Positions 1 to 64,000 of a stretch of 64,000 bases of DNA are shown here, one piece after another. A program made the position numbers. Numbering within the stretch: position 1 is the stretch's first letter; each line of letters opens with the position of its first letter. The stretch covers positions 160,026 to 224,025 of the forward strand of contig CAWGRW010000010.1 of NCBI GenBank assembly GCA_963825135.1. The letters are read 5' to 3'. Source of the DNA: an uncultured bacterium. Its GTDB lineage: Bacteria > Desulfobacterota_D > UBA1144 > Nemesobacterales > UBA2774.

Positions 1-3000
1 AATGTGCCTTCATATTCTTTTCGTGGCCGCTAATCGTCCGGGTCTCCCCGTTCTTCGCGGGCACTATCGTTTTCTTTTCGCTCATATGTATTGTCAGTTT
101 TCTCTTAACTATCGCCTTCATAAGGCCGTATCCTTTTAATCCGGATTAAAAGGGGAAATTCACCCAATTTAAGAGTATACCTTATTTATGCGTAATTATC
201 CCCTAAATTCGTTATAAATTATTAAATACGTGAAATCGCACACCTGCCGGGCTCTTTTCACGATCATACGGCCATATTTAGTGTTCGGTCAGATTCATTC
301 CCTATCCTCCTGCAATTATTGAGATGTGTCATATAAGCCACCGCGAATTCTCACGCTTTTCGGCCGCCTGCCGGACTTTCTAACGTAGATTTTGTCATAT
401 CGCACAATCCTCCCTCTTCCCGGCGCCCTGCCCTTATCGGCCGCCCCGGCCACCCCGGCCATCGCACCTGACCGCATTTGTCTACCCCGACATTACAGAA
501 TTTGCGGCGGGTGAGCACCCGCGGGCATATGATCTCAAGCATCTCCTCTCCTGTCATTTCGACCAACGGGAGAAATCTGTCTTCTCCTCTCCCGACATTA
601 CAGAATTTGCGTGAAGAAAATCGATTGTACGAGCGTTAAAAATCTTCCACGGGGTGGGGTTGAATTGGAAGATTTAGCGAGTACATGAGATTTTTAGCAT
701 AATTCTGTAGTCGGATGATTTTTGCTTCTTTGTATCCAGACAAAGAAGAAAATAATATTGTCTTAGCCTTTCACCTTTCTTTTGTCTTCCCGAAAGATCA
801 CACCGCGTGTGCCTTTTCCCTCCCTTTCGAAAAGCGCGGAGCGGCAGCGCATCAAACGAAAATCCCCCTCTCCCTGTTCCTCCTCCTGATCTCGGCCAGG
901 ACCGGGTCGGTCTCGGGCTCACCAGCCTCACCAGCCCGCTCCTCTTCCCGCCCGCTCCGGAGCGACTCGATCAGCCGGCGGACCCGCCTCCTGTTCTCCT
1001 CCGACCACTCCTCCCATTCGGGCTTCTCGAACCGCGTCTCGCGCCTGGCCCTCTCCTCTTCCTCCCTCTCGCGGCACGCCCTCATCCGCCGCCAGTCGTA
1101 CGTCACCCCGTCCTTCGTGCCCGAGGCGCAGTAATCGTCGTTCCCCTCCATGCCGAAGCACGCCCTGAAGTACTCGTACATCGGGGAGAACCCCTCCTCC
1201 GAATCCCCGTACTCCCGCCGCCACCAGGCGAAGCTCTGCCTGTAGAATATGCTGTCTTTCCCACATATATCGGATATATATTTCTGCGAGTACCCGCATT
1301 TCGTCAGGTACGCAGTGCACCGCGCCCAGAAATTATCGAACGCGTTTGTGAGCCTCGCCCTCTCCTCCGCGCGCCTCAGTATGTAGTAGAGGTGCCTGAA
1401 CGCCTCGAGGAAGCGGTCGAGCGTCCTCTCGGACCTGAGCACCGGGAAAAACTCCCTCTCGCCGGGCTTTATGAAATCCGCGAAGGGGTCGATCCCCTCG
1501 TAGAGCGCGAAGAGATTTTTGAGCGCCGCCTCCGCCTCGCTTCCTCCCGCCCCCCGGCTGAGAACCCGGCCCGTGTCCTTTGGAAGCGCGCTTTCGAGAA
1601 AGTCCAGCGCCTCCCTGAGCAGCCTCTTCTGCCTCGGCGTAGTATCCCCGCCCGTATACGATTTCTTCATTCCGCCGACTATCGCAGGAGCGGATTCCAG
1701 CCGCGATGATACATCGCTTCGCCCTGAACTTGTCGCTCGTCCCATAGTTTTATTCCCCTCTCCCCGGTCCAGAGGGAGAGGGTTCGGGTGAGGGGGTACC
1801 TTATTTTCACTTAAAAATTCTTCCTGATGCGCGTACCCCGCGCCGACCTCGGACTCCTTCCCCGCTCCGCAGCCCGGACCCTCAACCCCTCTTGCGGCTG
1901 ACCGCGCGGCTCCCGTCCGGAAGCGCCCGCCTTCGTGAGGCGCTCTCGATACCCCTGAGCTCCCCGTAAACTCTCTCGATCTTTTCGTTTGCATCTTGTC
2001 CCTCCCGCAATTTATCCGTGAAGCTGATCCGCACATCCGTCCCGCCGCGCTCCGCCGCCGCGGCCCCTCCCGGCCCGTCCCTCACGCCGCCCTGCCGCAT
2101 CTTCCGCAGGTGCCACTCGACCGACTGCGCCTGGCTCGCGAGGAGGCATATGTCGGGCGGTTTGTGAATCCACCCGAATACGCCCCCTTCCATCTGCGAG
2201 CCGAGCATGAACGCGGCCCCTTCGCCCGCGAGGTCGTAGATCTCCCCGGGCGGCATCTCCGGGTTCAGCTCGCGGAGCCTCCTGAAATAGGTCTCGGCCG
2301 ATTTGTACTCCCGGCCGCCCGTGAGCGCCGGCTGCCCCGCCGCGCTTTCGTAAAGCCCCCTGAAAACCTCGTTATACCACCTCGAATGCGAGTACCCGCC
2401 GGCCCCTCTCTTACTGTCATTGCGAGGGAGCGCTTTCGACGCGACCGCGGCAATCTCTTGCGAAGAATCCGCACTCACACTCGATCTCCTCGTGTCATCA
2501 CTACCCTCAATCATTTCCTCACCCTCCCCCGTAATGGGACCACGGGGGCCCCGCCCCGCCCGCGCAAGGTGGATTTGACCGGCCTTACCTTCCTTGATCA
2601 CGGCATCGCCTTCGCGAGCCTGATTGCGGTCATTGCGCGGAGCCTCCTGATAAGGCCCCCCGGTCTCCCGTATAAAGCCGTAATTCATTCCCCCCGCGCC
2701 TCTCCTTATTCCCCTCCCGTCCGCTTCTCCCTCATTCACGTTCGCTGAAAAATCCGCGCCCCCCGGCAAGCCCGCGTTCTTTGCGGGCGTGTTCTCACTC
2801 TCGTCTCCGTATATAAACTCTTCTCTTGTATTGGGGGGGACGGATTGTACACCCACGTAGGGGACATTTTCTTCCCCCACAGTGGGGGACATTTTTTTCA
2901 TCATCGTCCTCAGCTTTCTCACCAGAGGGTCTACGCTGAATACGACTCCCCTGGTTCTGCCGTTCCCGTGAAGGCTCACCTTCCGCCTGAGGAGCCCCTT

Positions 3001-63000: not shown

Positions 63001-64000
63001 TTATAAAATCAATCATGCTGAATTAATTTCAGCATCTCGCTTTTAATATCTTACATATCCCTTCTATACTACCTGCGCTCTCTTGCGTTTCACAGCGAAG
63101 AACACGCCGACCAATCCTAATCCCGCCGCGGCAGCGATCATCCCCCATTCGGAGAGGGTGGGAACGATCTCGTCGTTACCGCCGAACCACACGTTGAGCA
63201 CGCCGTTCCCGTGCTCCTGATTCTCCCCGTCCTGGTGATCGAGCAGGACGCAGCAGATGGGAACGTCGGACGTTATGCCCAGGAAATTATTGAACTTTTC
63301 GTTCAAACTTACTGTAGTCTGCCCGATCAGATTTTCGTGGGTATCGAGCACAGTGACGTCGGCGCTGCCATTGCAATCCCCCTGTGTATAGCACCCGACC
63401 GTAAGTCCTATCCGTGTCGCGCCGGGATTCACCGTGACGTCGAATGAGTCCTCGCCTGAACTCTCAATTAGTATAGGACCGGGCGGAGCGCCGGGGCCCG
63501 CGGCGGCCGTACCCAAAACACGCAGCCCTCCGACCGGGTTCACCGGCAGGTTATAGAACGCGAGCTCCGGAAGTATGTCGCCGGGAGAAAAACAGTCGTC
63601 GTCGCTCTCGGAATTGACCGGCACGTTGCACTGCTCCCCGTCTGTGGGCTGCACTTTGGTAGCGGAGAAGTCCTGGAATCGTAAATTCGGATTCTGCGCC
63701 AGGAACTGCCCCTGGTCGTTAGTGAACTCCACCTGCGCGAGCGCGGGCGAAAGAGAAATCAGAAGCGTTATTATAAATACGAAACCCGCAAGCTTGTGAT
63801 GATTCTTCATATGCGTTCCTCCATGTTCCCCCGCTCTTTTTTAATTCCCTCCTTTCGTAAAGGAGGGTTAGGGAGGATTTATGTTTTTCTTTCTTTTCAG
63901 GAATTAAGCGCCCTTCTCTTTCTCTTGACCGCGAAGAACACGCCGACCATCAAGAGCCCCGCAGCCGCAGCGATCATCCCCCATTCGGAGAGGGTGGGGA

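What a model noticed while it worked through the whole genome (the two positions that open the first line are those of the whole stretch)
1..64000. 260-kb low-density chromosome compartment packed with co-oriented mosaic hairpin repeats, led by a ~200-nt covarying str [...]
C10:65-224 kb and the adjoining first 100 kb of C9 are only 61-72% coding, and their spacers are mosaics of at least 11 families of 45-200-nt hairpin repeats that point the same way (420 of 437 hits on +) although genes face both ways; the orientation flips where the GC skew changes sign (C10 ~60 kb), and the same flip at the skew switch is seen in a nearly closed genome of another genus. I read the repeats, above all the ~200-nt covarying hairpin unit, as non-autonomous elements inserted or kept in a fixed orientation relative to the replication fork (single-strand-dependent mobilisation as in IS200/IS605, but with no such transposase here) that have turned the terminus region into a polar, [...]
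Evidence so far: Intergenic self-BLAST: 23,396 hits, concentrated in C10. Iterative nhmmer profiles: 730 hits in 11 families. C10:65001-224025: coding 0.609, repeats 17% of DNA and 42% of non-coding DNA, 332+/9-; C9:1-100000: 88+/8-; C9:0.5-2.45 Mb: 20 hits, coding 0.88; gene strands in C10:65-224 kb 62+/90-. Unit 1: 162 hits, 95 of 95 in C10 are +; some copies carry 70-110-nt loop inserts; ssDNA fold -28 kcal/mol, z -3.4; present in 27 of 32 relatives of the family; 22-sequence alignment from 10 genomes: 35 pairs, 13 with compensatory double changes, one pair G-U in 19/22. No Y1 transposase/RAYT, no integron integrase, no Rfam hit at E<=1. With repeats masked, skew is + at C9:2.72-2.787 Mb and C10:20-60 kb  The finding spans contig positions 40001 to 224025; this window holds only 160026 to 224025 of it. 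[...]
(Added by a program. Inside this text positions count along the whole contig: contig position 160,026 is position 1 of the stretch shown here. "Call 12" and the like, gene names such as g00115 and contig names such as C1 are that model's own, and its searches are not shown. The text may have been shortened before it was handed on; [...] marks where a part breaks off. The agent that wrote the report below was given it as the finding of a first reader that could run no searches.)

Follow-up and report, generated by a model that had tools for sequence, protein, structure and literature searches.

The report
Co-oriented hairpin-repeat array between accessory genes
A large stretch of this uncultivated bacterium's chromosome consists of accessory gene blocks separated by one ordered, always same-facing repeat unit that contains a conserved 122-base hairpin, resembling an integron-like cassette store without any integrase; its link to replication direction is weaker than first thought.

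Summary
The window is 66% coding against about 87% in the core. Repeats make up 16% of its DNA and 46% of its non-coding DNA. 248 of 254 repeat hits lie on +, although genes run 31+/29-. The "mosaic" is one ordered composite unit of 0.3-1.2 kb. It includes a 122-nt hairpin, U1, with strong covariation, found in 40 of 120 genomes of the class.

No Y1 transposase, TnpB or integron integrase was found, and none of 236 ORFs scanned in and beside the compartment matched a transposase or recombinase family; the IS110 search failed.

The replication reading is only partly supported. A conserved dif-like site lies about 0.4 Mb from the compartment. U1 does not flip across that site in three other genomes. 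The one clear flip, in G010, lies 230 kb from its dif-like site, and an inversion would explain it.

Comparison with the closest relative and with co-assembled strain variants shows indels, tandem duplication and reshuffling of "gene block + composite" units.

Best reading (0.45): an integrase-less cassette-like array that turns over by recombination between direct repeats. This keeps orientation automatically. The function of U1 is open.

The parts
477..811 (+). composite repeat block (modules A-S, then the U1 hairpin at 592-714)
   Evidence: block with >=8 BLAST copies; motif map
10038..10978 (+). composite block (P, A, Y, K, U1 at 10460-10581, T, H, T); starts 9 nt after the stop of the + gene 9595-10029
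13451..13995 (+). composite block (k, q, A, Y, K, k, U1b at 13801-13919, T)
18994..19447 (+). composite block (S hairpin overlapping the stop codon, q, P, U1 at 19248-19370, T)
20143..20876 (+). composite block (Y, k, A, K, k, Q, U1b at 20511-20629, T, q, H)
24776..25667 (+). composite block in two parts (H, Y, k, P, K, k, P, q, then a U1 variant interrupted after its 5' arm at 25375, H, T)
28042..28692 (+). composite block (A, Y, K, A-S-D, K, k, P, Q, U1b at 28421-28538, T, q, H, T, Q)
29468..30124 (+). composite block (H, Y, K, k, A-S-D, q, U1 at 29843-29965, T, H, K); reference copy for the folds
31887..32445 (+). composite block after the first S13 peptidase paralogue (P, U1 variant at 32135, H, T, q, H, T)
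34193..34756 (+). composite block after the second S13 peptidase paralogue (U1 with an ~85-nt loop insert at 34337-34544, T, H, T, A)
37263..37685 (+). composite block (H, Y, K, k, P, U1 at 37446-37567, T, H)
40124..40735 (+). composite block (Y, K, A-S-D, q, U1 at 40340-40463, T, H, q, H)
49006..50961 (+). double composite (Y, K, k, A-S-D, H, T, q, H, T / Y, K, k, Q, A-S-D, P, U1 at 50588-50709, T). The ORF 49529-50134 inside it is probably spurious.
53331..53696 (+). composite block (P, U1 variant at 53415, T, H, T)
61794..62441 (+). composite block (A-S, K, k, P, U1 with loop insert at 62110-62319, T)
63835..64000 (+). start of a further repeat block (P module), cut by the end of the window
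30255..34185 (+). two tandem S13 peptidase paralogues (30255-31883, 32572-34185), each followed by a composite. Further paralogues lie at C9:2.5-4.0 kb and 5.1-5.9 kb. This is an example of duplication of a 'gene + composite' unit.

Best explanation
The compartment is an integrase-less, cassette-like array. Blocks of one to several accessory genes are separated by one composite spacer unit of 0.3-1.2 kb. The unit has a fixed module order: a CACAC/GTGTG hairpin and a 'TACGATCC' module right after a stop codon; a GC hairpin module; 5' arm plus short hairpin; small CCCTCC hairpins; the 122-nt U1 hairpin; a CTTCTTTTC hairpin; and further small hairpins.

Because all units are direct repeats, recombination between them deletes, tandemly duplicates, or excises and re-inserts 'block + unit' segments. 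This is most simply RecA-dependent ectopic recombination. It never inverts the units. Co-orientation is therefore inherited and self-perpetuating, not imposed at insertion.

Polarity relative to replication is carried along passively, since an inversion across the terminus flips repeats and skew together. In large arrays it may also be selected. In all four large or many-copy sets whose replication direction could be inferred, the strand that folds better lies on the leading-strand template, as reported for large chromosomal integrons.

U1 is an old, class-wide structured element under constraint on one strand. Its molecular role is not shown; it could be a DNA hairpin recombination or structural site, or an RNA element.

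Shown: the anatomy, the co-orientation, the covariation, the block-level indels, duplications and reshuffling, and the absence of Y1 transposase, TnpB and integron integrase (IS110 could not be searched).
Inferred: that homologous recombination is the engine, and that large arrays are selected for orientation.
For: Fixed module order in 15 window spacers.

Blocks begin 1-10 nt after the stop of a + gene in many cases. 26 of 60 blocks have a coding + ORF ending at their left edge.

The closest relative, G001, is about 75-90% identical in genes and collinear, but has one composite where G000 has 'composite - 1 to 3 genes - composite'. This holds for 5 of 5 intervals on one 7-kb contig.

Junctions are permuted: A-B and C-D in G000 become A-D and C-B in G001, with strand kept.

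Strain-variant contig C13 joins sequence like C10:179-189 kb directly to sequence like C9:1-14 kb. It skips about 35 kb that is flanked by paralogous copies of 'gene + composite'.

There are four or more tandem S13 peptidase paralogues, each followed by a composite.

Spacers differ by module replacement between strains that are 95-98% identical.

Gene content is an eclectic accessory set. It includes toxin-antitoxin genes and IPTL-CTERM proteins, and none of 236 ORFs scanned in and beside the compartment matched a transposase, integrase or reverse transcriptase family.

No Y1, TnpB or IntI. All 8 tyrosine recombinase matches lie outside C10.

Orientation does not flip at the dif-like site in G032, G039 and G004.

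Neighbouring U1 copies on one contig agree in 43 of 51 adjacent pairs in five further genomes (my count).

The top strand folds better than the bottom strand in 71 of 73 copies as DNA and 73 of 73 as RNA.

The large sets (G000 C10, G010 2.32-2.50 Mb, G032 1.64-2.23 Mb, G029:C15) all have the top strand on the inferred leading-strand template (inference).
Against: No crossover could be mapped. G000/G001 spacers are too diverged, so homologous and site-specific recombination are not told apart.

The strong covariation and the conserved bulges of U1 are not needed for plain homologous recombination.

Two composites without genes sit at sites empty in G000, so the units can also reach new sites on their own.

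Many direct repeats 1-5 kb apart should be unstable under RecA, yet arrays persist in several genera.

C13 and the other small contigs come from a mixed assembly and could be chimeric.

Gene calls are crude. Composites are commoner after + genes (20 of 53 '++' spacers against 15 of 81 '--' spacers), which hints at a link to transcription that this model does not explain.

Small groups break the orientation rule seen in large arrays: G009:C17, G039:C7 right of the dif-like site, and G010's minor arm when judged by dif.
Confidence: 0.45

Rival explanations
1. Site-specific cassette system without its own integrase. The folded U1 hairpin, or another module, is the recombination site of a host-encoded or still unrecognised recombinase, for example XerC/XerD acting on a folded single strand as with CTX-type phages. 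'Block + unit' circles are excised and re-inserted as in integrons.
For: U1 is a long imperfect hairpin with conserved one-sided bulges: the GT after GC occurs twice in the 5' arm in 32 of 32 sequences from 4 genera. Covariation is strong and the two strands fold unequally. These traits recall attC sites and single-strand Xer substrates. The indel and permutation pattern fits circle excision and re-insertion. Two Xer-like recombinases and a conserved dif-like site exist. Large arrays have the better-folding strand on the leading-strand template, as in chromosomal integrons (PMC5371416, passages read).
Against: No IntI. In my reading of alignment A2, no R''/R' core sites lie in the attC arrangement. 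Only 8 of 11 bases of the XerD arm of the dif-like site recur in the U1 3' arm, and they are not conserved across genera. The arrays lie 0.2-0.4 Mb from the dif-like site. Blocks hold genes on both strands and whole operons. No precise common junction has been shown.
Confidence: 0.2
2. The hairpin units are non-autonomous single-strand-mobilised elements (like REPINs or IS200/IS605 PATEs), inserted or retained in a fixed orientation relative to the replication fork, and they have filled the terminus region.
For: G010: '-' copies left and '+' copies right of the skew switch. The main sets in G000, G010, G032 and G029 have the same polarity relative to the inferred fork direction. Filled and empty sites do exist between G001 and G000. 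U1 resembles a REPIN-type long hairpin. Mirror-oriented REP tandem arrays are described in P. fluorescens SBW25 (PMC3116915, passage read).
Against: No Y1/RAYT or TnpB (genome 94% complete). No flip across the dif-like site in G032, G039:C7 or G004:C1. Skew and orientation are unrelated in G039, 9 loci against 8. The two new insertions in G001 face opposite ways. No target duplication or common target was seen there. Modules keep a fixed order, so they are not independent insertions. The compartment is not at the dif-like site.
Confidence: 0.12
3. RNA-level elements. The composite is transcribed as the 3' end of the upstream + gene and acts as a terminator, insulator or stabiliser, or as a source of small RNAs. 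U1 is a structured RNA.
For: Composites start 1-10 nt after + gene stop codons. In the window, 14 of 15 follow a + gene. H modules score as weak + strand terminators. The top strand folds 9 kcal/mol better as RNA in 73 of 73 copies. G-U cells outnumber A-C cells 76 to 18, but the structure came from an RNA folding program that favours G-U. The single U1 copy in three small genomes lies just after a co-oriented gene.
Against: In G010's main arm U1 is antisense to almost all genes. In C10, 13 of 50 '--' spacers carry + oriented units. In G039, U1 is co-oriented or anti-oriented with neighbouring genes about equally. No Rfam family. No strong terminator follows U1. No transcript data exist.
Confidence: 0.13
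4. Polar chromosome-function sites, such as fork-pausing or fork-trap sites, translocase-orienting sites or terminus-domain organisers, kept by selection in one orientation per replichore.
For: Polarity independent of gene strand. Location in the terminus-proximal third of the chromosome in G000, G010 and G032.
Against: No mirror symmetry at the dif-like site in three genomes. Copy number ranges from 1 to more than 90 between genomes of one class. Five of 32 family relatives lack U1. The units are far longer and more complex than known polar motifs.
Confidence: 0.05

Closest known systems
Sedentary chromosomal integrons and integrase-less attC clusters (CALINs), e.g. the Vibrio superintegron
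   Same: A region of 100 kb or more with reduced coding density. Accessory genes, toxin-antitoxin genes among them, are separated by co-oriented imperfect hairpin repeats that are species- or clade-typical. Cassette-like gain, loss and reordering occurs. Large arrays carry the foldable strand on the leading-strand template (25 of 30 SCIs; PMC5371416, passages read).
   Different: No IntI, and no attI or Pc can be named. The repeat unit is 0.3-1.2 kb and composite rather than a 60-140-nt attC. U1 lacks the R''/R' cores in the attC arrangement. Blocks hold genes on both strands (31+/29-) and operons with their own promoter-like sequences.
REP/BIME mosaics and REPINs with their RAYT transposases, including the tandem REP arrays of P. 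fluorescens SBW25
   Same: Extragenic, modular ('mosaic') palindromic units. REPINs are long hairpins made of two inverted arms. SBW25 tandem arrays lie in forward orientation near 2 Mb and in reverse near 4 Mb (PMC3116915, passage read). REP-mediated duplications are known (recalled, not looked up here).
   Different: No RAYT. U1 is 122 nt with conserved bulges. The modules keep one order and one strand over more than 250 kb, whereas BIME REPs alternate in orientation (recalled). The units bound variable gene blocks.
IS200/IS605 elements and their non-autonomous PATEs
   Same: Hairpin-bearing, non-coding derivatives. Their orientation bias relative to replication is documented (abstract of PMC6006769 seen in the listing; the details are recalled).
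   Different: No TnpA or TnpB. No flip at the dif-like site in three genomes. No defined target.
Xer-dependent integrating elements (IMEXs) and pdif modules (recalled; no paper read here)
   Same: Gene modules bounded by recombination sites that use host XerC/D. No dedicated integrase is needed. The CTX-type attP is a folded single-strand hairpin of about 150 nt.
   Different: The arrays are 0.2-0.4 Mb from the dif-like site. No convincing dif-like 28-mer lies inside the unit.

Membership tests
Integron / CALIN | Integron integrase (IntI) next to the array; this is waived for a CALIN | tested here: not met
   Best TIGR02249 match is 88 bits against a cut-off of 265. It lies on the Xer-like genes of C9. 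No tyrosine recombinase in C10.
Integron / CALIN | attC sites: 60-140-nt imperfect palindromes with RYYYAAC ... GTTRRRY cores and extrahelical bases | tested here: not met
   U1 has conserved one-sided bulges, but GTTAAGA lies in the 5' arm and no RYYYAAC/GTTRRRY pair is in the attC arrangement (read by eye on alignment A2). No attC model was available. Rfam gave nothing.
Integron / CALIN | Co-oriented sites separating mostly single, promoter-less, co-oriented ORFs | tested here: not met
   The sites are co-oriented (248+/6-), but genes are 31+/29- with multi-gene blocks and promoter-like sequences before genes.
REP/BIME-RAYT, REPIN | A RAYT (Y1 HUH transposase) in the genome | tested here: not met
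   PF01797: 0 matches at E<=0.01. The control rings in 6 of 14 genomes. Genome completeness 94%.
REP/BIME-RAYT, REPIN | Short (20-40 nt) palindromes, singly or as inverted doublets, in extragenic space | tested here: inconclusive
   The units are extragenic and modular. U1 is a 122-nt hairpin of two unlike arms rather than a doublet of one REP.
IS200/IS605 PATE | TnpA (Y1) and/or TnpB in the genome; orientation follows the replication fork | tested here: not met
   No PF01797 and no PF07282. No flip at the dif-like site in G032, G039 and G004.
MITE | Terminal inverted repeats with target-site duplication and a cognate IS | tested here: inconclusive
   Two filled/empty sites (G001 against G000) show no evident duplication and replace a short terminator-like stretch. 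No IS with matching ends was looked for. The IS110 search failed.
Xer-dependent element (IMEX / pdif module) | A dif-like XerC-spacer-XerD site in the element, and insertion at dif | tested here: not met
   The dif-like site is single-copy in most of the 27 of 33 family genomes that hold it. It lies about 0.4 Mb (G000, if C9's end abuts C10's start) and 0.19-0.29 Mb (G010) from the arrays. Only 8 of 11 bases of its XerD arm recur in U1.

The most novel reading that the evidence does not exclude
The array is a new kind of gene-cassette store that needs no dedicated integrase. A 122-nt folded hairpin, conserved across the class and embedded in a composite unit, would be the site at which a host enzyme excises and re-inserts 'gene block + unit' circles. 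That enzyme could be XerC/D or a recombinase not yet recognised. Array size would be governed by which strand faces the lagging-strand template.
Probability: 0.15. Interest if true: 0.85.

Novelty: new variant of a known kind. Interest (0 to 1): 0.6.

Why it matters
If the reading holds, a whole class of uncultivated bacteria keeps its flexible genes in a repeat-bounded array that behaves like a superintegron but has no integrase. The record titles of relatives name them Candidatus Dadabacteria / Thermodesulfobacteriota.

This would widen the set of known ways in which bacteria store and shuffle accessory genes. It would also give a natural test of how hairpin orientation relative to replication limits array size.

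Practically, these units break short-read assemblies and mix strains, so they matter for binning and for pangenome work in this group. The conserved U1 hairpin is a well-defined new structured element (a covariance model was built here) whose partner protein or RNA role can be sought.

Tried and rejected
- Transcript data: no RNA holder was listed for window 26300-34300.
- Laying contigs of four DNA runs showed only that the repeat blocks are very deep and that contigs break there. The joints had sides of 20-44 nt and were not trusted.
- Crossover mapping in the G000/G001 permuted junctions failed. Identities were 70-90% over short pieces and one junction had no match.
- Treating the small contigs as further pieces of the compartment (my note) was wrong. 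They are strain variants.
- 'Composite orientation follows the upstream gene' looked right in the window (14 of 15). It failed in the rest of C10 and in G010.
- Boundaries: Pfam on ORFs at the left boundary (C10:50-70 kb) and at G010's flip point found no recombinase. G010 has a prophage of about 57 kb there.
- G009:C9: the hint of a flip near 110-126 kb turned out to be one clear '-' copy and one ambiguous hit among 39 nhmmer hits.
- G032 skew in 20-kb samples is noisy, so its replichores were set by dnaA and the dif-like site instead.
- The IS110 (PF01548) search failed twice for technical reasons.
- Literature: searches found no description of such repeats in Dadabacteria or of an array like this. 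Only the listings were seen.
- One Pfam call had wrong coordinates and was repeated correctly.

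
Full report
WHAT WAS CHECKED. The window is G000:C10:160026-224025 of a 3.13-Mb, 17-contig assembly. 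Record titles of relatives that carry the same repeat name them Candidatus Dadabacteria / Thermodesulfobacteriota MAGs.

With the same crude hexamer gene caller, two core stretches of C9 are 0.87-0.88 coding. C10:65-224 kb is 0.55 and C9:1-100 kb is 0.69. With Pfam-supported ORFs added, the window is 0.657 coding, with 60 genes, 31 on + and 29 on -.

Positions with 8 or more BLAST copies make up 16.1% of the window and 46.2% of its non-coding DNA. Spacers are repeat from the upstream stop codon to about 100 nt before the next gene.

Orientation is extreme. Within C10 there are 10,494 same-strand and 171 opposite-strand HSPs. Seventeen consensus modules found de novo and searched with nhmmer give counts in C10 beyond 65 kb such as 90/0, 71/1, 68/0, 66/0 and 96/1. 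Only a terminator-like palindrome is mixed, 10/7. These families overlap, so hits are not independent. In the window they give 248 + and 6 - hits.

THE HAIRPIN U1. A 5' arm (CCGACATTACAGAATT) occurs 171 times in the genome. 87 of these are paired with the 3' arm (TGTAGTCGG): 73 at 117-126 nt and 14 at 154-317 nt with loop inserts. In the window the arms are 27 + and 1 -.

One copy folds at -18 kcal/mol as ssDNA (z -4.1). As RNA it folds at -37.8 on + and -28 on -.

An alignment of 32 copies from 4 genera supports a 42-pair structure. 87% of cells are paired against 37-42% when partners are slid. 29 pairs change on both sides. No shuffle of 500 reaches the observed values. One pair is G-U in 28 of 32. 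A bulged GT after GC recurs twice in the 5' arm in all 32.

The top strand folds better than its complement in 71 of 73 copies as DNA (mean -21.1 against -18.9) and in 73 of 73 as RNA (-40.4 against -31.3). G-T cells outnumber A-C cells 76 to 18, but the structure came from an RNA folding program, which biases this count.

U1 is in 28 of 33 genomes of the family. With the covariance model R1 it is in 40 of 120 genomes of the class, 13 of 32 genera and 6 of 9 families. Copy number runs from 1 to more than 28 scored per genome. Three small genomes of one genus have a single syntenic copy just after a luciferase-like monooxygenase gene.

THE 'MOSAIC' IS ONE ORDERED UNIT. Motif maps of the window's spacers show the same order again and again. 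First comes a CACAC/GTGTG hairpin and a TACGATCC module. Then come a GC hairpin module (AACCCGTTCG...GTCGAAGG), the 5' arm plus a short GGGTGAGCACCCGC hairpin, small CCCTCC or GTCATTGCGAGC hairpins, U1, a CTTCTTTTC...GAAAAGAAG hairpin, and further CACAC hairpins. Modules may be missing or doubled.

In the window, 14 of 15 such composites follow a + gene. 26 of 60 blocks in C10 have a coding + ORF that ends at their left edge, often 1-10 nt away.

Over the whole compartment the link to gene strand is only a tendency. The 5' arm is present in 20 of 53 '++' spacers, 15 of 81 '--', 20 of 36 convergent and 7 of 34 divergent spacers. My gene calls are crude.

In G010's main arm the genes are nearly all on - (per 20 kb 1+/15-, 3/10, 3/10, 0/14, 4/10, 5/7) while U1 is on +. 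Orientation is therefore not set by transcription.

ENZYMES. There is no Y1/RAYT, no TnpB and no integron integrase (best 88 bits against a cut-off of 265). Eight tyrosine recombinase matches all lie on C9. The two best are Xer-like proteins of about 295 aa.

Pfam scans covered 60 ORFs of the window, 145 ORFs of the rest of the compartment and 24 ORFs at its left edge, plus 7 ORFs elsewhere. They gave an eclectic accessory set: IPTL-CTERM proteins, hydrolases, transporters, redox enzymes, RelB and HicAB, and LexA-like proteins. No transposase, integrase or reverse transcriptase appeared. The IS110 search failed. Rfam gives nothing or only chance hairpin matches.

REPLICATION: WHAT HOLDS. In G010 (another genus, 3 contigs), R1 finds 46 copies. 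Seven are '-' at 2.225-2.251 Mb, 38 are '+' at 2.320-2.500 Mb and one is '-' at 0.569 Mb.

Skew is negative to about 1.1 Mb, positive from 1.3 to 2.26 Mb and negative beyond. dnaA is at 0.994 Mb. A prophage of about 57 kb fills 2.264-2.321 Mb between the two arms.

REPLICATION: WHAT DOES NOT HOLD. A motif that matches the right half of the B. subtilis dif site (recalled) occurs in 27 of 33 family genomes, mostly once each, and never in the reversed-pattern control.

In G000 it lies at C9:2,448,794. A copy on C4 is a strain variant. That is about 0.4 Mb from the compartment, if C9's end abuts C10's start. It is close to the maximum of the repeat-masked cumulative skew near C9:2.29 Mb. C10 at about 60 kb is thus the edge of the compartment and a local skew change, not a shown terminus.

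In G010 the motif is at 2.033 Mb, 230 kb from the flip.

In G032 it is at 2.551 Mb. Eleven '-' copies and one '+' copy lie on one side, and two '-' copies (0.161 Mb and a partial one at 2.772 Mb) lie on the other.

In G039, from another family, it is at C7:448 kb. Four '-' copies lie left of it and five '-' copies lie right. Local 20-kb skew agrees with the G000/G010 rule at 9 loci, disagrees at 8 and is near zero at 1.

In G004:C1, '-' copies lie at 263 kb and 720 kb around the motif at 423 kb, with a weak '+' hit at 431 kb.

In G000 itself, eight small non-U1 clusters on the other replichore (1.92-2.39 Mb) are all '+'. U1 clusters at 2.456, 2.472, 2.709 and 2.711 Mb are '+', and those at 2.5435 and 2.5475 Mb are '-'.

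An inversion that spans the terminus flips repeats and skew together. A flip at a skew switch therefore does not show that orientation is set by the fork.

One regularity remains. The four large or many-copy sets with an inferable fork direction (G000 C10, G010 main arm, G032 1.64-2.23 Mb, G029:C15) all have the better-folding top strand on the leading-strand template. Small groups do not (G009:C17, G039:C7 right of the motif, G004:C1 at 720 kb). This is inference. [quoted passage not shown]

HOW THE ARRAY CHANGES. Only G001 has a close orthologue (91% aa) of the window's ammonium transporter. Other genus members have paralogues of 35-47%.

G001 contigs are collinear with C10 but shorter. On one 7-kb contig, six genes match C10:171-194.6 kb. 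In each of the five intervals G001 has one composite where G000 has composites plus 1-3 extra genes.

Two G001 contigs join C10:205-209 kb to C9:18-20 kb, and C9:13-17 kb to C10:210-213 kb. These are the junctions A-D and C-B instead of A-B and C-D, with strands kept. That is what excision of a circle between two direct units, followed by re-insertion, would give.

The small contigs of the assembly are 93-98% identical variants of C9/C10 from a co-assembled strain. C13 links sequence like C10:179-189 kb directly to sequence like C9:1-14 kb. It skips about 35 kb that is bounded by paralogous 'gene + composite' copies. Between such strains, spacers differ by replacement of module sets.

S13 peptidase genes, each followed by a composite, occur four or more times in tandem-like order.

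Composites can also appear alone. G001 has two, in opposite orientations and 1 kb apart, at sites that are empty in G000 (C9:436.1 and 436.75 kb). One replaces a 24-nt terminator-like stretch, and no target duplication is evident.

READING. The data fit best an integrase-less cassette-like array that turns over by recombination between direct composite units (confidence 0.45). Co-orientation is then inherited and self-keeping. Polarity to replication is passive, with possible selection in large arrays.

The conserved, one-strand-biased U1 structure is not explained by plain homologous recombination. It keeps open a site-specific mechanism with a host recombinase (0.20) or an RNA role (0.13).

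LIMITS.
- Gene calls are home-made.
- The assembly mixes strains.
- Replichores in draft genomes are inferred from a dif-like motif, dnaA and sampled skew.
- The adjacency of C9 and C10 is assumed. It is supported only indirectly by C13 and the G001 contigs.
- No transcript data exist.
- Papers: two were read as passages and the rest were seen only as listings. No supplements were read.

Noticed in passing
window 12829-13425, 14081-14416, 14609-14962, 20917-21771, 22254-22925, 23338-23892, 50978-52156, 55739-56500, 63064-63810: An expansion of secreted proteins ending in the IPTL-CTERM sorting motif (PF18203). Their conserved C-terminal coding stretch shows up as a DNA repeat family (D8/D10), mostly on the - strand.
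   Followed up: partly
window 35277-36278 (-): A collagen-triple-helix-repeat protein with DUF7151. Its 9-nt periodic coding repeat is the largest 'direct repeat family' (D1) and has nothing to do with the spacer repeats.
   Followed up: no
window 1-10000: A stretch with 38-44% GC at 6-10 kb and strong negative skew at 1-6 kb. It carries DUF5131 (phage-type), a weak TIR_2 match, a LexA-like S24 repressor and few spacer repeats. It is probably a prophage remnant or defence islet inside the array.
   Followed up: no
G000:C9:2448794-2448818 (-) and G000:C4:152-176: A dif-like 25-mer, found in 27 of 33 family genomes, mostly once each. It lies 26 kb from a Xer-like recombinase gene (C9:2422.6 kb). 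It places the terminus about 0.4 Mb from the compartment.
   Followed up: partly
G000 contigs C1-C8 and C11-C17: Most of the small contigs are largely covered by 93-98% identical variants of parts of C9/C10 (C4, C5, C7 and C8 only in part). The assembly therefore holds a second, closely related strain, and several variants differ from the main contigs by block or module indels.
   Followed up: partly
G010:C1:2263700-2321000 (loci L056-L059): A prophage of about 57 kb (tail tube, tail S, large unknown proteins, all on -; part of it 37.5% GC). It sits exactly between the two oppositely oriented repeat arms at the skew switch.
   Followed up: partly
L257, L258, L259 (three genomes of genus g26), about 1500-1635 (-): A single, syntenic, diverged U1 copy in 1.6-1.9-Mb genomes, between a luciferase-like monooxygenase gene and a GidA-family gene. 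It could be the ancestral or functional locus of the element.
   Followed up: partly
window 5282-5926, 39384-40034, 53793-54476; also G000:C9:64427-64840: Several LexA-like S24 peptidase genes and an SRAP (SOS-response-associated peptidase) gene are scattered through the array.
   Followed up: no
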